Virus record (IMG/VR): IMGVR_UViG_3300007143_000050
Coordinates: 1-7,669 of that record
Strand: one strand, 5' to 3'
Source of the DNA: a virus
Length of the DNA: 7,669 nucleotides
The notes under the pieces are model-generated. The model was not told the origin of the DNA. It made no database searches and was given only the letters and a program-made list of their open reading frames with translations. This document shows, in pieces, positions 1-7,669 of this stretch. The first letter of the stretch is position 1. Each line of letters opens with the position of its first letter. The position numbers and the translations under genes are program-made.

Positions 1-83
1 AATGCTGTCAAGCATCTGTTAAGTAACATAATATAAGTTATGCAGAAATCAGATCACTACTCGATTTGCGTACAAGCAAGCTT
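1..83. repeat. Terminal direct repeat, copy 1 (identical to 7587-7669)
   Basis: Base-by-base comparison: aatgctgtcaagcatctgttaagtaacataatataagttatgcagaaatcagatcactactcgatttgcgtacaagcaagctt occurs at both window ends. Confidence 0.97.
21..48 (-). other. dif-like XerC/XerD recombination site B (putative attP half). It is duplicated at 7607-7634 because it lies inside the terminal overlap.
   Basis: The minus strand reads TTTCTGCATAA-CTTATA-TTATGTTACTT. This has the dif architecture (11-nt arm ending CATAA, 6-nt centre, 11-nt arm starting TTATG). Compare E. coli dif GGTGCGCATAA-TGTATA-TTATGTTAAAT: the XerD arm matches at 8 of its first 8 positions, and the XerC arm core GCATAA is conserved. Confidence 0.6.
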
Positions 84-106: not shown

Positions 107-301
107 TTATCCACGAGGACTAATTCCATTCTCCATGCAAACTTGTAAGTAAATATTGAGTGACTTTTCTGCTTTCTGGTATAAGTCTTCAAGATTTGCT
201 GCATAACAGTCCGCACCGCTATTCAAACCTATAAATTGGCCATGAAATTGGTGAATATCTGAGTCATATGAAATCTCAAGGATATAACCATTAATATTCA
301 T
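107..301 (-). CDS. HicB-like antitoxin N-terminal domain protein (HicB_lk_antitox-type), lacking the usual C-terminal DNA-binding domain
   Basis: From the ATG at 301 the product is MNINGYILEISYDSDIHQFHGQFIGLNSGADCYAANLEDLYQKAEKSLNIYLQVCMENGISPRG. This fits the HicB-like N-domain pattern as I recall it: Y.G....yD.ed..FHG...G..d...feg....eL......s...YL..C.e.G..P. The ORF-track version (107-364) starts at a TTG with no SD. ATG starts exist at 322 and 301, and 301 is preceded by the purine-rich aagaagag. The protein stops right after the N-domain, with no RHH/HTH tail. Confidence 0.65.
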   Translation of the reverse strand: MNINGYILEISYDSDIHQFHGQFIGLNSGADCYAANLEDLYQKAEKSLNIYLQVCMENGISPRG

Positions 302-430
302 AATATTACTCTTCTTACACATTGTTGTGCGGTTCTTGCTCTGTAGGTAGTTACAACTATTCAATTTATATCAGTTCGCAAGTTTCACTTTATTAACGTC
401 AACTCTTCGAGATTGACCTTAATAAAGCGA

Positions 431-1841: not shown

Positions 1842-2141
1842 TTATGTTCCTTTACGGAAAGCTAAATTTTTAGCTCTTAAAGTCATTTTTATAACTAGGG
1901 CACTAAAAACAATAGATAAACCCACATCAAATCCAGCAATTCCTAGTAAACCAATGACATCACCAAGTGAGTTATAAGACTGTTGTGCATATTCAATATA
2001 TTTATGGATTAAAGTTAAACTGATCGTTGTGCTAACGATGCCTATACCAAGCCCTTTTAAGATGGTTTGTCCTGATTTAGATAAAACTACATCCGCAATT
2101 TTTGTAAGCAAGGAAGCTAATGACATAGATTCAATCCTCAC
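1842..2141 (-). CDS. pVI-like hydrophobic minor coat protein
   Basis: Small, strongly hydrophobic protein (GLGIGIVSTTISLTLI, LLGIAGFDVGLSIVFSALVI) located between the pIII-like and pI-like genes. The track start at 2141 is a GTG overlapping the pIII-like stop. An ATG at 2126 preceded by GAGGA (8-nt spacing) is the more likely start, giving 1842-2126 and 94 aa. Confidence 0.65.
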   Translation of the reverse strand: MRIESMSLASLLTKIADVVLSKSGQTILKGLGIGIVSTTISLTLIHKYIEYAQQSYNSLGDVIGLLGIAGFDVGLSIVFSALVIKMTLRAKNLAFRKGT

Positions 2142-3360
2142 TCGCTTTTCTTGAAGTGCCTGTTACGATAAAGGCAGCAACCACCCAAGCTATTAGAATC
2201 ACTGCTGGTCTTGCTTGATTTGCTAAAGCACAGAATGGTTGGTAACTCAATGTAATATGGCTATTTAAATTTGCGATATTTATAGGAATTTTATTGTCTG
2301 CTGGACAATAAGCATTACCTTGAATATATGAGACTTTCATACTATTAAGTAGATGATCTAAGTTTTCTTCTTCAACTTGCTTCTCAGGCTCTTCTACATT
2401 TTCTGGTTCAGCTTTAACCCAATCAATAAATTCACATACCACATTAAACCACTCACACGCTTCGGGTAATTCTGATGTTGATAAGCCTGTTGGATTTCCA
2501 TCAGAATCCAATACTGGTCGTGTTGTGATTTCTTTGCTTACTTGGCTATCAAAGTCTTTTTCTATTTCTGTTTTTACATCCGGATCAGCAAATATATCAT
2601 TCCAGGGAAAGTAAATTTCACCTGCATGATCATCTACGATTTTGTCTATATCAGCATCAGATAATGGTGATGGTTCACTAGATGGATCTGGGTTCGGACT
2701 AGGATTAGTTTTGGTTGGTTTGTAATAGATAGAGAATGTGCCAGTATCAGTTTCACCTGTAATTTTATGTATAGAAGAATAAGGATGTTGGAAATAACCT
2801 TGTCTTGGGAAGTTCGTGATATTTAAGTAGTCATAAGGCTCTAAAGCATAATTTCGATATTGATCGGAAGGAATAAGCGCACATGATGCTGTTTTAAATG
2901 GTGAATTAGTGACACATTTAGGATTGCCAACAGTTCCTGAGTGAAATTGGTAATCACTGTACGTTGTATTTTGATCTGGTTTTTTACCCCACTTACCATT
3001 GAAGAACTCAAAGCCTAGATAACCTAAAAAGGCGACTAATGCTGCTGAACCTACTGCTAACTGTGGATTTCTAAGCACACGAGATCTTAATGATAGCTTT
3101 GCTAAATTGTTTGTTTTTAACGTATTGAGTTTATATGATTTTTGATAAGTACGATCATTTACAGCATCGCCATATTGATCAACTTTGTGGCCACTAACTT
3201 TTAAGGTTTTAGTAGAGTTGTCGATAGCATATTTTAAGTCCCATTTTTCAGCAGCACCTGCATAAATAGAATTAGACCATATTCCAGTAAGTATTAAAGA
3301 TATAGCTAAAAGAGTTTTTAAAATATTTTTAGAGCGACCAGTATCCAAATCAGTAAGCAT
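2131..3360 (-). CDS. pIII-like adsorption / minor coat protein
   Basis: The N-terminus has a signal-peptide-like hydrophobic stretch (LLAISLILTGIWSNSIYAGAAEK). There are three spaced Cys pairs and a Pro/Ser-rich linker (PTKTNPSPNPDPSSEPSPLSD). The C-terminus carries a TM anchor plus charged tail (AVILIAWVVAAFIVTGTSRKASED). It is the largest structural ORF and sits directly after the major coat gene. SD AGGAG lies 7 nt upstream. Confidence 0.7.
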   Translation of the reverse strand: MLTDLDTGRSKNILKTLLAISLILTGIWSNSIYAGAAEKWDLKYAIDNSTKTLKVSGHKVDQYGDAVNDRTYQKSYKLNTLKTNNLAKLSLRSRVLRNPQLAVGSAALVAFLGYLGFEFFNGKWGKKPDQNTTYSDYQFHSGTVGNPKCVTNSPFKTASCALIPSDQYRNYALEPYDYLNITNFPRQGYFQHPYSSIHKITGETDTGTFSIYYKPTKTNPSPNPDPSSEPSPLSDADIDKIVDDHAGEIYFPWNDIFADPDVKTEIEKDFDSQVSKEITTRPVLDSDGNPTGLSTSELPEACEWFNVVCEFIDWVKAEPENVEEPEKQVEEENLDHLLNSMKVSYIQGNAYCPADNKIPINIANLNSHITLSYQPFCALANQARPAVILIAWVVAAFIVTGTSRKASED

Positions 3361-3499: not shown

Positions 3500-3778
3500 T
3501 TACATTGCAGTTTTAACCCATTTAAAGACTTTCGCAGTCACGAACAGAGATAAGACCGCTAGACCAATTGCAGATACAGTTGCAATTGCACCTGTGATGG
3601 TTTGGATTACTGTTGATACATCGACACCGCCCTCAGCTGCAAATACAGAACTTGCAGATAAAGCGATTCCTGTTACGACCATTTTTTTAATGGTCTTTGT
3701 TTGTTTGGGAATCAACTCTACTCTTAAAGATTGAATACCTTGATTCTCTTGTTTTGGATAAGTTCGTACTTGTGACAT
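3500..3778 (-). CDS. Major coat protein precursor (pVIII-like)
   Basis: The predicted mature part after the ...ALSASSVFA|AEGG cleavage-like site is AEGGVDVSTVIQTITGAIATVSAIGLAVLSLFVTAKVFKWVKTAM (45 aa). It has an acidic N-terminus, a hydrophobic core and a Lys-rich C-terminus, which is the classic inovirus coat layout. The ATG at 3778 has a good SD (GGTGGA, 6-nt spacing). An internal ATG at 3682 (MVVTGIALSASSVFA...) would give a conventional short signal peptide but has no SD. Confidence 0.8.
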   Translation of the reverse strand: MSQVRTYPKQENQGIQSLRVELIPKQTKTIKKMVVTGIALSASSVFAAEGGVDVSTVIQTITGAIATVSAIGLAVLSLFVTAKVFKWVKTAM

Positions 3779-3992: not shown

Positions 3993-4211
3993 TTACATTT
4001 TTTCAAGTTGATGATTTACCTTCCAAATTAATGTCTTAAGATCATTAATTTCTTCATTTGTTGTTTCATCACTGTCTTGAATTTCTTCTAAATAACCTTC
4101 CAGTACAAATTGGATTCTGGTGTAATCATCTTTACGTAATACACCTATCCGTCTGTCATAGTTCACAGATGCATGAAGTGCATTTCGACGCCTAAAATTA
4201 AATTGGTTCAA
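3993..4211 (-). CDS. Hypothetical 72-aa soluble, acidic-tailed protein; start codon uncertain
   Basis: The open frame fills the gap between the pV-like gene and the next gene. Its first codon is TTG (complement of 4209-4211), which overlaps the pV-like gene end by 14 nt. There is no SD and no in-frame ATG except the last codon. Translational coupling is plausible. Confidence 0.4.
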   Translation of the reverse strand: MNQFNFRRRNALHASVNYDRRIGVLRKDDYTRIQFVLEGYLEEIQDSDETTNEEINDLKTLIWKVNHQLEKM

Positions 4212-4479
4212 TATCGGTCAAGATTACTTTTGAAGTTTTTCCATTTGTTACGGTTTTAAATGCAACCTCGGCATTAAATGGGAAGTCGAGATGAGCAATT
4301 TTGTTGTAATTCACTGAGGTGCCCCAGTTATATTCAATGGTGGCAAATCCCATAGCATTCCCAGTACTCGAATCTAATGGCGCCTGTACATATACAACTG
4401 TTTTGTCATATTTATTTCCATTGAAATCACCTACAGAACGTTTTGCACCAGTGATTGTAAGCGTTTGATTATCTGACAT
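4198..4479 (-). CDS. ssDNA-binding protein (gene V-like)
   Basis: 93 aa, beta-rich sequence (LTITGAKRSVGDF, KTVVYVQAP, KTSKVILTDIEP) directly downstream of the replication gene, which is the conserved position of pV/RstB-type proteins. Strong SD GAGGAA lies 5 nt upstream. The assignment is mostly positional. Confidence 0.55.
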   Translation of the reverse strand: MSDNQTLTITGAKRSVGDFNGNKYDKTVVYVQAPLDSSTGNAMGFATIEYNWGTSVNYNKIAHLDFPFNAEVAFKTVTNGKTSKVILTDIEPI

Positions 4480-4539: not shown

Positions 4540-5814
4540 TTATGCAACTTTCAGGAATTGTGATACTGGTTCCTGATACCAGTCTGGACGTTGTGAACCA
4601 AAGTCCACATCCACAAAGCGAAGCAACGGAACGATATTGGACTGTGCTTCGCCATGTAAATTTTGTAAAAATGCTTTAGAAAAGCCTGCATCTTGTAATT
4701 CTTTGATATGTCTATAGAAAGTTTGATTTCCGTTATGCATTTTCTTTAATGCGCTATATCCTTGTTCTCTCAAGGAAATATAAAATAGAAGTAATTTATG
4801 AGCTTTGGAGTAACTAATATTCCCTTTAGGAGTGAGTTTGAAATGAACAGATTTAAGTTGTTCTAGTACAGAATCATCATCAGTAATTTTCATTGTTTGA
4901 CCCTCGAAAGCGGCAAAGATATCTGACGTGGTTTCTTTCCATAATTCAGCACATAAGGAACGACCTTGATTTTTTAAGTCCTGTTCATATTGAATTAGAT
5001 CAGTTAATAGAAACGGCAATTCACGTCTTTGTAGCCAACGCTTGCAGATAGTAGATTCGAAACGGATAAGACCCTTAGACCACTCAATTAGCCTTGGATC
5101 AGACATTACGTTGTAGACTCTTAAAGCGACTTCATCTCCAGCGTCAGCTTTTTTCTTGTAATCTTGCATTTGTTTTTGATATTCAATTGCTTTGAGATAT
5201 GCCTTTAAGCGTTTTAGTCTAGAATTTTTTGCACCCCAATAAGCTGTAGTTTGATATTCATCGCCCCTCGCCTTTGTTTGCCCATTACTTACTTTTTTCA
5301 GCATGTCCATAACTTGCTGGGCTTCATAATCATTTTTTAAACGAGCTGAATAAGTTGCATCTAGTTCCCATATTTGTGTTGATTCAACTTCAAGCATTGA
5401 AAATAACTTTGGATATGCCTTTTGTAAGGTCGTCAACATTTCAGCAGCCCCTTGAGCAATATCTGTTGGGCCAAATAAGTTATGTCCCTGGAGAAGTTTT
5501 GCTGGAGATGCCTTTATTTCTATATATGGATAATGATTACAGTCATGGAACACTTTAAATGCCAAAGGTGTATATGAGCTTTCAAGGGATTCAAACGGAT
5601 GATAAATTTCATCTATTTGCCAATCTTTCCAGAATCTATCTTCATGCTCTGCTAAAGCGACTGCCCTAGCCCCTAATGGAATTCCAAGTTTAAGAACATC
5701 AAATAGCATTCCTTTATGCTCATGCTCCATGGCATTTTTTGCAGTCAAATAGGCTGATGCCCCAGTTACATACTGAGGCTTAAATGGTGTCATCATTCTT
5801 AGCCTATCCCACAT
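4540..5814 (-). CDS. Rolling-circle replication initiation protein (pII / Phage_CRI family)
   Basis: The motif IEIKASPAKLLQGHNLFG matches the conserved ..NP.K.LQGHN.FG signature I associate with filamentous phage replication proteins (gene II/X, CRI). It is the largest ORF and the first in the core operon. The start could be the ATG at 5814 (no SD) or the ATG-ATG at 5796/5793 (preceded by taggctaaga). Confidence 0.8.
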   Translation of the reverse strand: MWDRLRMMTPFKPQYVTGASAYLTAKNAMEHEHKGMLFDVLKLGIPLGARAVALAEHEDRFWKDWQIDEIYHPFESLESSYTPLAFKVFHDCNHYPYIEIKASPAKLLQGHNLFGPTDIAQGAAEMLTTLQKAYPKLFSMLEVESTQIWELDATYSARLKNDYEAQQVMDMLKKVSNGQTKARGDEYQTTAYWGAKNSRLKRLKAYLKAIEYQKQMQDYKKKADAGDEVALRVYNVMSDPRLIEWSKGLIRFESTICKRWLQRRELPFLLTDLIQYEQDLKNQGRSLCAELWKETTSDIFAAFEGQTMKITDDDSVLEQLKSVHFKLTPKGNISYSKAHKLLLFYISLREQGYSALKKMHNGNQTFYRHIKELQDAGFSKAFLQNLHGEAQSNIVPLLRFVDVDFGSQRPDWYQEPVSQFLKVA

Positions 5815-5938
5815 AATTTACTTGTTTAAAAGTTACCAATAGAAGTAAAACAATTAAAACAATTTAAAAGTAACTTTACAATCTAAAAATAAAGGTAAAA
5901 TGTAAAAAAGTAACTTTGTTTATATGAGTACTATGTGA
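5815..5938. promoter_or_regulatory. Divergent control region between the replication gene and the small plus-strand gene. It carries repeated AAAAGTAACTTT boxes and a tandem 9-mer.
   Basis: AAAAGTAACTTT occurs at 5866-5877 and 5906-5917, exactly 40 bp apart. The inverted core AAAAGTTAC occurs at 5828-5836. A tandem AAAACAATT x2 lies at 5847-5864. The region is extremely AT-rich with many -10-like hexamers, and I cannot assign individual promoters confidently. Confidence 0.5.
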
Positions 5939-6133
5939 ATGGCTAAAGTCTATAAAGTCCGAGATGAAGAAGTAGAGGCAATTAAAGAAGCCTTGATGAA
6001 ATTTGTCATTGATAAAAAAGTCTTAATGAAAGAATCGGATGTGATCCATGCATTGATTAAATATCATCTTAAAAACTTAAAGTCTGAGGAAGTTGTTCGC
6101 TATCGAGAAGATGTTTTAGGTAAAGATGACTAA
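5939..6133 (+). CDS. Small (64 aa) putative transcriptional regulator, transcribed divergently from the replication gene (positional analogue of RstR/phage repressors)
   Basis: MAKVYKVRDEEVEAIKEALMKF...ESDVIHALIKYHL is compatible with a short strand-helix-helix (RHH-like) layout. The position is divergent from rep across a repeat-bearing intergenic region. The SD is weak. No family was recognised with certainty. Confidence 0.4.
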   Translation: MAKVYKVRDEEVEAIKEALMKFVIDKKVLMKESDVIHALIKYHLKNLKSEEVVRYREDVLGKDD

Positions 6134-6146
6134 TCTTAGTCATCTT
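6123..6146. terminator. Perfect 10-bp hairpin between the convergent genes 5939-6133 (+) and 6155-6667 (-)
   Basis: aagatgacta (6123-6132) / tagtcatctt (6137-6146) with loop atct. It overlaps the TAA stop of the plus-strand gene. There is no clear U-tract on either side, so terminator function is uncertain. Confidence 0.35.
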
Positions 6147-6154
6147 CTAACCAA

Positions 6155-6667
6155 TTAAATTGCATGATAATTTTTATTAAATGAACTTGCTAAGTTACGG
6201 TGACAATAAGATATTGCATCAGATTCAAGTTCTTTTGAATTTCCATTTATTCTAATTGCTTCAATTAGTGCGCGATATTCAAGAGCAGTTATACGACGCG
6301 CTAACCTATAAGGCTCTTTCATGCCTTTCAAATGATCTTGAACAGAACTATGATTAAAGTTTTCGTGACCTGTCTCCCAATCCATGTACTGAATTAAATC
6401 AGCATCATTCATATTTTTTATAATGAGAGAGTATTCAGATACTTTTTTTTGGAAATTTTCATCTGTTATTAGGTAATACTGAAAGGATGAGTCTCGCCCA
6501 TCATAATCCACTACATCAAGCTCTTTGATATACAAGGCTTGCAAATCAGTCCCCCACTCTTTGGGGTTGGAATATTCTGAATTTACGAAAGGAGCATTCT
6601 CAAGTTGGTTATTTGTACGCTCAGTGAATTTTAAAAATGCTTCTGTATCAATTGATAAATTAGTCAT
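6155..6667 (-). CDS. Hypothetical 170-aa protein (accessory gene, no family recognised)
   Basis: ATG with strong SD GAGGA 6 nt upstream. A promoter-like element lies upstream. The protein is soluble and rich in acidic residues. It lies outside the conserved inovirus core. Confidence 0.6.
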   Translation of the reverse strand: MTNLSIDTEAFLKFTERTNNQLENAPFVNSEYSNPKEWGTDLQALYIKELDVVDYDGRDSSFQYYLITDENFQKKVSEYSLIIKNMNDADLIQYMDWETGHENFNHSSVQDHLKGMKEPYRLARRITALEYRALIEAIRINGNSKELESDAISYCHRNLASSFNKNYHAI

Positions 6668-6703
6668 AGATAGTCCTCAAAATTATTTTATAAACAACTT
6701 TGA

Positions 6704-6731
6704 ATTATAAAACCAGCTATAAAGACGACAA
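6704..6731 (-). promoter_or_regulatory. Sigma70-like promoter candidate for the 170-aa gene
   Basis: The minus strand reads TTGTCG (6731-6726), a 16-nt spacer, then TATAAT (6709-6704). The -10 lies about 37 nt upstream of the ATG at 6667. Confidence 0.4.
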
Positions 6732-6808
6732 AAGTTTTGTACTAATTTCAACCATAGGAGTTGTTGGAGAAATATGTCTTTTATGGGTGATTAATCTCAA
6801 AATGAGAC

Positions 6809-6843
6809 AAGAGTCCACCATTAGATAACGTGGACTCTTTTTT
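6809..6843 (+). terminator. Rho-independent terminator, plus-strand orientation
   Basis: aagagtccac (6809-6818) / gtggactctt (6830-6839) with an 11-nt loop. The stem runs directly into a T-tract (six consecutive T at 6838-6843). The opposite strand has no T-tract directly after the stem. Confidence 0.6.
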
Positions 6844-6945
6844 GTACAAATAAACATCAACAAAGTAATTTAAAAAAATTAACCACTTGAAAATTAAATT
6901 AATAAACAGATACTAAATATCTCAATAACTTTATAAGGAAAATAA

Positions 6946-7443
6946 GTGGAAATTCAATTAACAGATAAAGAACGTTTATTCTTGGCTAATCAGCATGAGA
7001 TTCTAAGTTTTTTAGACAAAGATAATTCAGAATATCATTCGAAACTTGCCGAGCAATTGAAACGTGGTCATAAATGGTTGTATGAACAGAGTTTTGATTA
7101 TTTCTCTGAAAATCTTTCAGAAGAAAATGCACAATTGGTTTTAGATATTCTTCAAATCTATGAAATGCTTCAAGATGCTTATGATTCTGTTGTAGATAAG
7201 ACAAAAGTCTCCGCAGATGAAATTAAATTCCCTGGATTTGATGGAAATAATGAACCTGAATTCATGGGTTTTGTTGACGCCTTGAAGAAAGATGATCGCT
7301 ATGTTGATGTTATTGAAAATGGATATAGAAACTCTCATTCACAAAAGATTCATAGATATTCAATTATGATCACGAAATGGGAAGAGTTTGGTAAACCTTA
7401 TAGCCTTACAAATGATCAAGTGCTTGAAATTTTGGGTAAATAA
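6946..7443 (+). CDS. yfbU: YfbU / UPF0304 family protein
   Basis: 165 aa, the same length class as E. coli YfbU, with matches to it from memory along the whole length (ERLFLANQ..IL..LD...EY vs QRLILSNQ..MM..LD..NAERY; RG; F.GFD; G.V....RY; Y..M...W....Y.L). GTG start at 6946 with AAGGA 6 nt upstream. The upstream region is AT-rich and contains a TTGAAA hexamer (6887-6892). Confidence 0.7.
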   Translation: MEIQLTDKERLFLANQHEILSFLDKDNSEYHSKLAEQLKRGHKWLYEQSFDYFSENLSEENAQLVLDILQIYEMLQDAYDSVVDKTKVSADEIKFPGFDGNNEPEFMGFVDALKKDDRYVDVIENGYRNSHSQKIHRYSIMITKWEEFGKPYSLTNDQVLEILGK

Positions 7444-7464
7444 TCATTTACACTAGTCATTCTG

Positions 7465-7493
7465 AAGTCGCATAACTTCATTTTATGTTAAAT
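7465..7493 (+). other. dif-like XerC/XerD site A, inverted relative to site B
   Basis: AAGTCGCATAA-CTTCATT-TTATGTTAAAT. The right arm is identical to the 11-nt XerD arm of E. coli dif (TTATGTTAAAT). The left arm shares CGCATAA with the XerC arm. The centre is 7 nt as written, or 6 nt if the right arm is shifted by one. Confidence 0.6.
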
Positions 7494-7502
7494 AACATAT
7501 CT

Positions 7503-7596
7503 ACGACAGCACCCTAATTTAGTTGCGTTACCGCAACTTCATTTCAATCGTTGGTGCTGTGCCTGACAGCTTATGTAACAAGTGACAATGCTGTCA
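7503..7596. other. Cluster of nested hairpins in the large non-coding region. Candidate origin or packaging-signal structures.
   Basis: acagcacc (7506-7513) / ggtgctgt (7553-7560) enclose agttgcg-ttac-cgcaact (7521-7538). tgacagc (7564-7570) pairs with gctgtca (7590-7596). The hexamer GACAGC or its complement recurs four times (7505, 7556 imperfect, 7565, 7590). Confidence 0.45.
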
Positions 7597-7669
7597 AGCA
7601 TCTGTTAAGTAACATAATATAAGTTATGCAGAAATCAGATCACTACTCGATTTGCGTACAAGCAAGCTT
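7587..7669. repeat. Terminal direct repeat, copy 2 (identical to 1-83). The repeat is cut by the window end.
   Basis: Same 83-nt string as 1-83. The hairpin at 63-92 is only half contained in this copy, so the repeat looks like an overlap or permutation boundary rather than a biological repeat end. Confidence 0.97.

What the first reader, a model, noticed from the sequence alone, without database searches (positions are those of the whole stretch)
6155..7443. Accessory island: divergent 170-aa unknown protein and YfbU-family protein with their own promoters and terminator
About 1.3 kb of a 7.6-kb genome is devoted to two genes that are not part of any inovirus core. They are transcribed away from each other from a shared 278-bp intergenic region, which contains a good promoter for the 170-aa gene and a strong plus-strand terminator.

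YfbU/UPF0304 is a structurally solved but functionally unassigned family. I am not aware of it being described as filamentous phage cargo. The 170-aa protein resembles nothing I recognise.

A compact phage rarely keeps dead weight. The pair is therefore a candidate for a lysogenic-conversion, superinfection-exclusion or defence/anti-defence function, and is the best place in the window for a genuinely undescribed system.
Basis: partly seen in the sequence, partly recalled or inferred. Interest (0 to 1): 0.7.

Follow-up and report, generated by a model that had tools for sequence, protein, structure and literature searches.

The report
Inovirus cargo: YfbU gene plus orphan
The 1.3-kb region holds two real but unrelated accessory genes of an Acinetobacter filamentous phage: a mobile YfbU-type gene of a family already shown to block phages elsewhere, and an orphan gene that always sits beside the phage's likely repressor gene.

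Summary
Both ORFs are real genes under purifying selection (dN/dS 0.06-0.26). They diverge from a 278-bp spacer that carries a promoter-like site and a strong plus-strand terminator.

The reading as a two-gene system does not hold. The genes occur together only in this window.

**YfbU gene (6946-7443).**
- It is a full-length YfbU/PF03887 protein.
- It lies in a roughly 600-bp cassette with its own conserved promoter.
- The cassette fills a variable cargo slot next to a CTXphi-like XerCD attachment site.
- Versions 44-87% identical sit 9-22 nt from Xer sites in other Acinetobacter inoviruses, in a 1.8-kb element at the chromosomal dif site, and in plasmid pdif modules.
- Their neighbours are often defence genes (AbiD, DUF2971, Avs8B-like).
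- A YfbU-domain protein, Kamadhenu, is a published single-gene abortive-infection system.
- Defence-rich cargo hotspots in dif-integrated filamentous prophages are published for Vibrio.

**170-aa gene (6155-6667).**
- It belongs to a tiny family: 5 representatives among 1.84 billion proteins.
- Its confidently predicted fold matches nothing known.
- In all 11 distinct contexts read it is convergent with the 64-aa repressor-like gene, and the two share a hairpin.
- Its function is unknown. I infer a role in the phage immunity module.

Verdict: new member of a known kind, moderate interest.

The parts
5939..6133 (+). 64-aa gene (p64), a probable repressor-type regulator. It is divergent from Rep and convergent with the 170-aa gene.
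   Evidence: It matches phrog_5219 at E 6e-25. It lies 124 nt from Rep on the opposite strand. It is 97% identical to the A. baumannii phage allele but only 48% identical to the allele of L007, the nearest backbone relative, which suggests immunity-type variation. A ribbon-helix-helix fold is only suggested: the single-sequence AF2 model has pLDDT 64, and there is no Pfam or PDB hit.
6125..6146 (.). Conserved hairpin overlapping the p64 stop codon, between the two convergent genes. It is a probable bidirectional terminator.
   Evidence: RNA dG is -14.8 and -15.7 kcal/mol on the two strands, with z -6.5 and -4.6. The motif AGATGACTA-n-TAGTCATCT is kept in all seven 170/p64 pairs compared, even where p64 identity falls to 25%. 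It is lost in L011, which lacks the 170-aa gene.
6155..6667 (-). 170-aa orphan gene encoding a cytoplasmic, acidic (pI 5.0), mainly helical protein.
   Evidence: Only 9 clusters in 5.8 billion proteins and 5 representatives in 1.84 billion are related. AF2 gives pLDDT 84.6. Foldseek finds no match to PDB or BFVD with E <= 0.001; the best E-values are 0.96 and 0.41. dN/dS is 0.14-0.26.
6704..6731 (-). Sigma-70-like promoter for the 170-aa gene.
   Evidence: TTGTCG-16-TATAAT, 10 of 12 matches. The block is conserved in L007, L004, L008 and L181.
6809..6846 (+). Plus-strand intrinsic terminator that shields the YfbU cassette from upstream plus-strand transcription.
   Evidence: dG is -16.1 kcal/mol, z -4.9, with a T6 tail on the plus strand only. 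It is conserved in L007 and L011.
6844..7455 (.). Variable cargo slot, here filled by the YfbU cassette.
   Evidence: Homology to L007 stops at 6843 and resumes at 7456. Homology to the A. baumannii phages stops at 6748 and resumes at 7444. Alternative contents of the slot are a 129-aa multi-transmembrane gene, a 135-aa plus a 99-aa gene, or nothing.
6887..6914 (+). The YfbU cassette's own promoter-like site.
   Evidence: TTGAAA-16-GATACT. The same TTGAAA-16-GATAYN arrangement is present in plasmid L009 and phage L011.
6946..7443 (+). YfbU-family gene of 165 aa.
   Evidence: It is 70% identical to the A. pittii plasmid p2_005046 protein. It is 75-87% identical to copies on other Acinetobacter-like contigs, of which L011-L016 are inovirus-type and L010 is of unknown type.
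7465..7493 (+). attP site A, a dif-like site with a 7-nt spacer, lying 22 nt after the YfbU stop codon.
   Evidence: AAGTCGCATAA-cttcatt-TTATGTTAAAT. It is conserved in the related inovirus loci that reach this region, whatever their cargo.
7607..7634 (-). attP site B, an inverted dif-like site with a 6-nt spacer. It is repeated at 21-48 because of the terminal overlap.
   Evidence: Sites A and B pair in a forked hairpin in single-stranded DNA, with dG -36 to -39 kcal/mol and z -7 to -8.
5820..6490 (.). Swapped immunity block: the p64 operator region, p64, and the C-terminal two-thirds of the 170-aa gene.
   Evidence: In a sliding-window comparison this block is about 90% identical to the A. 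baumannii Rep_trans-type phage and 40-80% identical to L007. Both flanks are mostly 97-100% identical to L007.

Best explanation
The region is the accessory and immunity end of a 7586-nt, CTXphi-like Acinetobacter inovirus that integrates at dif through XerCD. It holds two independent units.

**1. The YfbU cassette (about 6844-7455).**
- It is a single gene with its own promoter. An upstream terminator shields it from plus-strand transcription.
- It sits in the hypervariable cargo slot that ends about 10 nt from attP site A.
- I infer that the lysogen expresses it and that it works like the YfbU-domain system Kamadhenu. In that model a cytoplasmic, oligomeric protein arrests or kills the cell when an unrelated lytic phage infects or when DNA-damage-type stress occurs. 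That would protect the clonal host population and the prophage with it.
- The cassette belongs to a pool of small cassettes found next to Xer sites in inoviruses, dif mini-elements and plasmid pdif modules. I infer that it was gained by exchange within that pool.

**2. The 170-aa gene.**
- It is a lineage-restricted protein with a predicted new fold.
- It is inherited together with the 64-aa repressor-type gene. The two genes are convergent and share a terminator hairpin.
- I infer that it belongs to the phage's own immunity or regulatory module. It most likely modulates p64-dependent repression or superinfection immunity, and is not a partner of YfbU.

**Shown:** gene reality, family membership, cassette boundaries, independent distributions, linkage to Xer sites, linkage of the 170-aa gene to p64, and the mosaic structure.

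**Inferred:** expression in the lysogen, the defence activity of YfbU, the regulatory role of the 170-aa protein, and the route of acquisition.
For: **YfbU membership**
-.

**Cassette boundaries and alternative cargo in the same slot**
-.

**YfbU relatives and Xer sites**
- The stop codon lies 9-22 nt from a Xer site in 8 of 8 loci that have downstream sequence.
- These are phage-type or unclassified loci (window, L010, L011, L013), the dif mini-element L027, and plasmid pdif modules or plasmid-like contigs (L009, L021, L022).
- Homology between the window and L010 ends within 2 nt of the site.

**Defence genes next to close YfbU relatives**
- AbiD at E 3e-62 in L021; its homologue sits in the same position in L022.
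- DUF2971/PDC-S31 and a PD-T4-9_C-like gene in L010, and PD-Lambda-4_B (Avs8B)-like at E 7.6e-56 in L027.
- FRG/PDC-S15 genes beside 6 more distant YfbU genes.

**Published function**
- Kamadhenu is a YfbU-domain single gene with an abortive-infection phenotype (PMC11381338).
- E. coli yfbU is required for death after DNA damage (PMC2646832).
- Accessory hotspots in dif-integrated filamentous prophages are enriched in defence genes (PMC11630473).

**170-aa gene**
- The family is tiny and confined to inovirus contexts.
- A convergent p64-like gene follows it in all 11 distinct contexts, with a conserved hairpin in the seven pairs compared.
- It was co-transferred with p64 in the mosaic swap.
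- It is kept in 2-kb mini-elements that retain only regulatory genes.
- It is under purifying selection.
Against: - No experiment exists on this protein or on any Acinetobacter YfbU.
- Identity to the presumed Kamadhenu protein (P0096) is only 38% over 120 residues. I could not verify that P0096 is identical to pUCCL624_130.
- Acinetobacter also has a chromosomal yfbU (51-61% identical). A housekeeping-type role of the fold is therefore possible.
- PADLOC (2023) has no YfbU model, so 'defence' rests on one paper plus gene neighbourhoods. I ran no matched control for those neighbourhoods.
- In plasmids the Xer site faces the opposite way relative to YfbU, and phage-plasmid homology ends at the stop codon. 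A simple Xer crossover does not explain the transfer.
- For the 170-aa gene, linkage to p64 could reflect plain physical proximity.
- L011 and L012 lack the 170-aa gene, so it may be dispensable.
- No DNA-binding or other recognisable motif was found in the 170-aa protein.
Confidence: 0.6

Rival explanations
1. The 170-aa protein and YfbU form one two-gene system, such as sensor plus effector or toxin plus antidote, run from the shared divergent spacer.
For: The two genes are adjacent and divergent, with promoter-like sites in a single 278-bp spacer. Elsewhere YfbU genes often do have an adjacent partner: a 168-aa transmembrane protein in 14 of 80 loci, FRG in 6, and SocA_Panacea in 1.
Against: The two genes co-occur only in this window. 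The 170-aa gene occurs without YfbU in about 10 distinct contexts, and YfbU occurs without it in inoviruses, a dif mini-element and plasmids. Against L007, the cassette boundary at 6843/6844 falls between the two genes; against the A. baumannii phages it falls at 6748/6749. The 170-aa family is unrelated to the common YfbU partner family, with hhalign probability 0.1%.
Confidence: 0.04
2. YfbU serves the phage or converts host physiology, and does not defend against other phages. It might tune the host's death response to DNA damage so that the lysogen survives or is induced, or it might act as an addiction factor that stabilises the prophage.
For: E. coli yfbU is a 'death gene' acting specifically after DNA damage (PMC2646832). 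The chromosomal A. baumannii yfbU responds to the DdrR/UmuDAb damage regulon (PMC10808703). The toxin-antitoxin system of the filamentous phage Pf4 is cited as aiding phage replication.
Against: The same cassette also sits on small plasmids and on a two-gene dif element that have no phage life cycle. Its neighbours there are defence genes. The only direct test of a mobile YfbU-domain gene gave phage resistance.
Confidence: 0.2
3. The 170-aa gene is itself an independent cargo gene for defence, anti-defence or exclusion of unrelated phages. On this reading its position next to p64 has no regulatory meaning.
For: It has its own promoter. It lies at the edge of the variable region. It is absent from L011 and L012, which carry p64. 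The protein is acidic (pI 5.0, net charge -9), as many anti-restriction proteins are (from my own knowledge).
Against: Cargo in the neighbouring slot turns over freely. The 170-aa gene instead stays with p64 down to 44% identity of its own and 25% identity of p64, with a conserved shared hairpin. It was swapped together with p64. It has no PADLOC hit.
Confidence: 0.25
4. The region is decaying junk, or its ORFs are chance ORFs in AT-rich DNA.
For: GC content is low, at 27-35%. Many short spurious ORFs overlap the region.
Against: dN/dS is 0.06-0.26 across several divergent pairs. The YfbU match covers the full profile. The AF2 model of the 170-aa protein is confident. Promoter-like sites and ribosome-binding sites are conserved.
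Confidence: 0.01

Closest known systems
Kamadhenu (Lactococcus plasmid pUCCL624_130, 180 aa; PMC11381338)
   Same: Both are a single gene on a mobile element that encodes only a YfbU/PF03887 domain. In the Acinetobacter clade there is no fixed partner gene. Kamadhenu was reported to lie beside another antiphage system on its plasmid, and the Acinetobacter relatives sit next to defence genes.
   Different: Identity to the presumed Kamadhenu protein P0096 is only 38% over 120 residues. The host is a Gram-negative bacterium. The carrier is a filamentous phage, and the gene sits next to a Xer site. The phenotype is untested here.
E. coli YfbU / UPF0304 (PDB 1WPB, 4LR3); MazF-pathway 'death protein' (PMC2646832)
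   Same: The same family, matching over its full length (E 4e-16; NCBIfam equivalog score above the cutoff).
   Different: The E. coli gene is a chromosomal core gene. The phage copy is closer to plasmid-borne Acinetobacter copies (70%) than to the chromosomal Acinetobacter yfbU (51-61%).
Accessory-gene hotspot of dif-integrated filamentous prophages in Vibrio (PMC11630473)
   Same: Small inoviruses that integrate at dif without an integrase. They have one defined variable locus whose contents turn over between close relatives and are enriched in defence genes.
   Different: The genus and the cargo set differ. Here the slot is mapped to within about 10 nt of attP site A, and it shares a cassette with plasmid pdif modules.
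CTXphi RS2 region and attP (rstR, ig-2, rstA; two inverted dif-like sites), and the RS1 satellite with rstC. From my own knowledge plus PMC11209303.
   Same: A small repressor-type gene is divergent from Rep, with strongly divergent alleles on otherwise near-identical backbones. The attP is a forked hairpin built from two inverted dif-like sites. Prophages form tandem arrays at dif. Short satellite-like elements keep only the regulatory genes.
   Different: p64 is not an RstR homologue. The 170-aa protein is not related to RstC (74 aa) or RstB. No toxin genes are present.
Acinetobacter plasmid pdif (dif) modules (PMC6449649, PMC13141974)
   Same: The closest annotated YfbU relatives lie in modules of about 1.8-2.1 kb bounded by inversely oriented pdif sites (L009, L021, L022). 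The YfbU stop codon is 15-21 nt from a pdif site.
   Different: In the phage only one side of the cassette abuts a Xer site. That site is the phage attP type, with a 7-nt spacer and the opposite arm order. YfbU or defence modules are not mentioned in the dif-module papers I searched.

Membership tests
YfbU / UPF0304 (Pfam PF03887, NCBIfam NF003936) | Full-length match to the family profile above the curated cutoff | tested here: met
   Pfam gives 116.6 bits against a cutoff of 25, covering profile positions 2-164 of 166. NCBIfam gives 108.1 bits against a cutoff of 90.
YfbU / UPF0304 (Pfam PF03887, NCBIfam NF003936) | Sequence relationship to the solved YfbU structures | tested here: met
   1WPB at E 3.8e-16 and 4LR3 at E 4.8e-16, over residues 3-163.
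YfbU / UPF0304 (Pfam PF03887, NCBIfam NF003936) | Two-domain helical fold and large oligomer | not tested
The oligomeric state cannot be tested with these tools.
Kamadhenu antiphage system | Single gene on a mobile element encoding only a YfbU domain, with no obligatory partner | tested here: met
   One domain covers the whole protein. The neighbours of close relatives differ from locus to locus: the 170-aa gene, a 145-aa secreted protein, AbiD, an Avs8B-like gene and a methyltransferase fragment.
Kamadhenu antiphage system | Close sequence relationship to the validated protein | tested here: inconclusive
   Identity to P0096 is 38% over 120 residues, E 6e-22. P0096 is a 180-aa protein, 95% identical to my reconstruction of the frameshifted pUCCL629C gene. 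I could not confirm that P0096 is pUCCL624_130, because the paper's supplement is not held.
Kamadhenu antiphage system | Confers phage resistance with an abortive-infection phenotype | not testable with these tools
   This needs cloning and phage challenge.
Two-gene system of the 170-aa protein plus YfbU | The two genes co-occur in other genomes | tested here: not met
   They co-occur only in the window.
CTXphi-type Xer-dependent integrating inovirus (context) | Two inverted dif-like sites able to pair as a hairpin in single-stranded DNA | tested here: met
   Site A is at 7465-7493 and site B at 7607-7634. The DNA fold pairs them, with z -7.1 and -8.0.
CTXphi-type Xer-dependent integrating inovirus (context) | Prophage copies lie next to the chromosomal dif site, and the phage has no integrase | tested here: met
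   Relatives lie beside ATTTCGCATAA-tgtata-TTATGTTAAAT at the LrgAB-LysR locus (L003, L027) and form tandem arrays. No integrase-sized ORF or integrase hit was found in the window. The window's own integration was not observed.
Acinetobacter pdif module | Cargo bounded on both sides by inversely oriented 28-bp pdif sites with 6-nt spacers | tested here: not met
   This is met for the plasmid copies (L009, L021, L022). In the window only the right side abuts a Xer site, that site has a 7-nt spacer, and no site lies in 6668-6945.
Ribbon-helix-helix repressor (for p64, the partner of the 170-aa gene) | Recognisable ribbon-helix-helix domain or fold | tested here: inconclusive
   There is no Pfam or PDB sequence hit. 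The single-sequence AF2 model has pLDDT 64. Its extended N-terminal segment followed by helices is compatible with the fold but does not prove it.

The most novel reading that the evidence does not exclude
The cargo slot next to the inovirus attP, the small two-gene elements at the chromosomal dif site, and the plasmid pdif modules of Acinetobacter are one Xer-linked exchange network. This network moves small defence cassettes (YfbU, AbiD, Avs8B-like, DUF2971) between phages, plasmids and the chromosome. Filamentous phages would then be both vehicles for dif-module cargo and a possible source of it. Separately, the 170-aa/p64 convergent pair would be a new type of inovirus immunity switch built on a protein with a new fold.
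Probability: 0.2. Interest if true: 0.65.

Novelty: new member of a known kind. Interest (0 to 1): 0.4.

Why it matters
- It would add a Gram-negative, phage-borne example to the YfbU/Kamadhenu family. That family's mechanism is unknown, and the 2023 PADLOC model set used here has no model for it.
- It extends to Acinetobacter, a priority pathogen and a target of phage therapy, the rule that dif-integrating filamentous prophages carry a defined defence-rich cargo slot.
- The repeated placement of one cassette next to Xer sites in phages, plasmids and the chromosome gives a concrete, testable link between inovirus attP sites and the poorly understood mobility of Acinetobacter dif modules.
- The 170-aa protein is a clean target for learning how these phages control lysogeny.

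Tried and rejected
**Searches that found nothing**
- Megablast of the whole window against INPHARED phages: no match.
- tblastn of the 170-aa protein against phages: no match.
- Single-protein scans of IMG/VR for both proteins: nothing. Alignment-based scans did work later.

**170-aa protein: no family or fold assignment**
- No hit in Pfam, NCBIfam or PADLOC, including a scan of all family members at E <= 5.
- Only weak hits to PHROGs of unknown function.
- No PDB sequence hit.
- No Foldseek hit to PDB or BFVD with E <= 0.001.
- I considered an ADP-ribosyltransferase-like R-S-E motif by eye. I rejected it because the model is mainly helical.
- I tested whether the 170-aa protein is a diverged form of the common 168-aa YfbU partner. 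hhalign rejected this at probability 0.1%, and that partner has an N-terminal transmembrane helix.

**Other tests**
- I considered that the p64 transcript reads antisense through the 170-aa gene to the terminator at 6809-6846. I down-weighted this after finding the conserved hairpin between the two genes.
- A simple Xer crossover between plasmid pdif and phage attP would explain how the cassette was acquired. The data do not support it: the arm order is opposite, and homology ends at the stop codon.
- The p64 structure model is low-confidence, so I ran no fold search on it.
- Rfam gave only a sub-threshold hit to STnc320 on the terminator hairpin, which I take as chance.
- The consensus terminator scan returned zero sites because of its loop-size limit.
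- I planned a PADLOC census of YfbU neighbours with matched controls. I did it only on selected neighbours, so no enrichment statistic is claimed.
Full report
**1. Observation**

The window is a small inovirus. Its core genes lie on the minus strand:
- Rep (Phage_CRI plus G2P_X_C), 4540-5814
- a 93-aa ORF in the position of the single-stranded-DNA-binding protein, 4198-4479
- coat protein, 3500-3778 (assigned from L007, where the same-sized syntenic ORF hits Phage_Coat_B)
- a TspB-like adsorption protein, 2131-3360
- a 99-aa ORF in the position of pVI, 1842-2141
- Zot, 796-1839

Bases 1-83 repeat 7587-7669 exactly, so the genome is a 7586-nt circle.

- A promoter-like site for the 170-aa gene (TTGTCG-16-TATAAT, 6731-6704, minus strand) scores 10 of 12. 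It is conserved in relatives.
- The plus-strand terminator at 6809-6846 is real. It has a 10-bp stem and a T6 tail, with dG -16.1 kcal/mol and z -4.9.
- Both genes are under purifying selection, with dN/dS 0.14-0.26 and 0.06-0.16.

**2. The YfbU gene**

The 165-aa protein is a full-length YfbU.
- PF03887 matches at E 1.6e-33, and NCBIfam NF003936 scores above its cutoff.
- The solved structures 1WPB and 4LR3 match at E 4e-16.

Its nearest relatives (70-87% identical) are on short Acinetobacter-like contigs and small plasmids. The chromosomal Acinetobacter yfbU is more distant, at 51-61%.

DNA comparison defines a cassette.
- Homology to the nearest backbone relative, L007, stops at 6843 and resumes at 7456.
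- Homology to A. baumannii prophages stops at 6748 and resumes at 7444.
- Homology to A. pittii plasmid p2_005046 covers only 6886-7444, that is, the gene plus 60 nt that carry a conserved TTGAAA-16-GATAYN promoter-like site.

In relatives the same slot holds other contents:
- a 129-aa multi-transmembrane gene
- a 135-aa transmembrane gene plus a 99-aa gene
- nothing

**3. Attachment site and Xer linkage**

The slot ends about 10 nt from a dif-like site: site A, AAGTCGCATAA-cttcatt-TTATGTTAAAT, at 7465-7493. An inverted site B (7607-7634) lies 113 nt further on.
- The two sites pair in a forked hairpin in single-stranded DNA, with z -7 to -8.
- Related prophages form tandem arrays next to a consensus dif site at the LrgAB-LysR locus.
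- This is the CTXphi mode of integration, already suspected for some Acinetobacter filamentous prophages (PMC11209303).

In 8 of 8 loci with downstream sequence, the YfbU stop codon lies 9-22 nt from a Xer site.
- Four are phage-type or unclassified loci: the window, L010, L011 and L013.
- One is a 1.8-kb element between phage-type sites at the chromosomal dif site (L027).
- Three are plasmid pdif modules or plasmid-like contigs: L009, L021 and L022.

Homology between the window and L010 ends within 2 nt of the site.

There is a caveat. In plasmids the arm order relative to YfbU is reversed, and phage-plasmid homology stops at the stop codon. One simple Xer crossover therefore does not explain the transfer.

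**4. What YfbU probably does**

Neighbours of close relatives are defence genes:
- AbiD, inside the same pdif module (L021; its homologue occupies the same position in L022)
- DUF2971/PDC-S31 and a PD-T4-9_C-like gene (L010)
- a PD-Lambda-4_B (Avs8B)-like gene (L027)

More distant YfbU genes pair with other partners:
- a 168-aa transmembrane protein in 14 of 80 loci
- FRG/PDC-S15 in 6 loci
- a Panacea antitoxin domain in 1 locus

IMG/VR holds 161 viral contigs with YfbU relatives. The 80 best-scoring ones were examined. Most come from contigs of tailed-phage size, and none carries this phage's hallmark genes.

The literature supports a defence reading.
- Kamadhenu is a 180-aa Lactococcus plasmid protein made only of a YfbU domain. 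It is a single-gene system that behaved like an abortive-infection system (PMC11381338).
- E. coli yfbU is needed for death after DNA damage (PMC2646832).
- The window protein is 38% identical over 120 residues to the presumed Kamadhenu protein P0096.

I infer a prophage-borne defence gene of the abortive-infection type.

**5. The 170-aa gene**

It has no hit in Pfam, NCBIfam or PADLOC.
- Only 9 clusters in 5.8 billion proteins are related, and only 5 representatives in 1.84 billion.
- The AF2 model is confident, at pLDDT 84.6 and pTM 0.77. It shows a mainly helical protein with one beta-hairpin.
- Foldseek finds no match to PDB or BFVD with E <= 0.001.

Every family member I could place lies in an inovirus context. 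Each is followed, 15-24 nt later, by a convergent 64-77-aa gene homologous to window 5939-6133 (phrog_5219). That gene is itself divergent from Rep.

A hairpin overlapping that gene's stop codon (...KDD*) is conserved in all seven pairs compared, even at 25% p64 identity. It is lost in L011, which has p64 but no 170-aa gene.

The window is a mosaic.
- It is mostly 97-100% identical to L007, except for two blocks.
- One block is the YfbU slot.
- The other is 5820-6490, which is about 90% identical to A. baumannii phages that use a different Rep family.
- That second block carries the operator region, p64 and the C-terminal two-thirds of the 170-aa gene.
- p64 is 97% identical to the A. baumannii allele but only 48% identical to L007's, which is the pattern of RstR-type heteroimmunity.

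Two-kilobase mini-elements at dif keep the order 170-aa gene, p64, an 82-aa gene, a truncated Rep and a 72-aa gene.

I infer that the 170-aa protein belongs to the immunity or regulatory module. Its biochemical role is unknown.

**6. Pair or not**

The two genes co-occur only here. The 170-aa family is also unrelated to the common YfbU partner family.

**7. Comparison and novelty**

The closest known things are:
- Kamadhenu and E. coli YfbU
- the defence-rich accessory hotspot of dif-integrated filamentous prophages in Vibrio (PMC11630473)
- the CTXphi rstR/attP architecture
- Acinetobacter pdif modules

I found no paper that mentions YfbU in inoviruses or in dif modules.

The finding is a new member of known kinds. 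It also contains an uncharacterised orphan protein, and it offers a testable link between the cargo next to inovirus attP sites and plasmid dif modules.

Noticed in passing
window 1-83 and 7587-7669: An exact 83-nt terminal direct repeat. The contig is a circle of 7586 nt assembled with an overlap.
   Followed up: yes
window 7465-7493 (+) and 7607-7634 (-), the latter repeated at 21-48: Two inverted dif-like sites 113 nt apart fold into a forked hairpin, as in the CTXphi attP. Related prophages lie in tandem next to a consensus chromosomal dif site (L003 6816-6843; L027 4648-4675).
   Followed up: yes
window 5820-6490, compared with L007 and L004: An immunity block has been swapped between inoviruses that use different Rep families (Phage_CRI and Rep_trans). 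The breakpoint lies inside the 170-aa gene, near codon 57.
   Followed up: yes
L003 2655-6843; L001 9337-11977; L008 9484-11978: Mini-elements of about 2 kb sit at dif, sometimes in tandem. They carry the 170-aa gene, p64, an 82-aa gene, a 139-aa truncated Rep and a 72-aa gene, bounded by sites A and B. They are conserved from A. baumannii to A. halotolerans, and may be RS1-like satellites and not random remnants.
   Followed up: partly
L027 4648-6529: A 1.8-kb element at the chromosomal dif site is bounded by phage-type sites B and A. It carries only an Avs8B (PD-Lambda-4_B)-like gene and a divergent YfbU gene, with no Avs8A.
   Followed up: partly
L021 2685-4838 and L022 48-2202: A plasmid-type pdif module holds AbiD and YfbU together. 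In L010, YfbU lies beside DUF2971/PDC-S31 and a PD-T4-9_C-like gene. Defence cargo in dif modules is not mentioned in the dif-module papers I searched.
   Followed up: partly
L033, L039, L044-L046, L049, L050, L054-L056, L061, L084, L095, L099 (next to the YfbU match): In 14 of 80 species-representative loci from diverse phyla, YfbU is directly adjacent to a conserved 164-172-aa protein. That protein has an N-terminal transmembrane helix and no Pfam or PADLOC hit, so the two may form an unnamed two-gene module. Six other loci have an FRG/PDC-S15 gene just upstream.
   Followed up: partly
window 107-364 (-): An ORF with a HicB-like antitoxin N-terminal region (phrog_9151, E 2e-6; the conserved core is 64 aa in L007). 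It lies just inside attP site B, and no HicA-like partner is evident.
   Followed up: no
window 6125-6146: A hairpin is built from the last codons (KDD and the stop codon) of the 64-aa gene. It is conserved across the whole 170/p64 family.
   Followed up: yes
window 6799-6860 (-): A sub-threshold Rfam hit to Salmonella sRNA STnc320 (32 bits against a gathering score of 50) lies on the terminator hairpin. It is probably a chance match.
   Followed up: no
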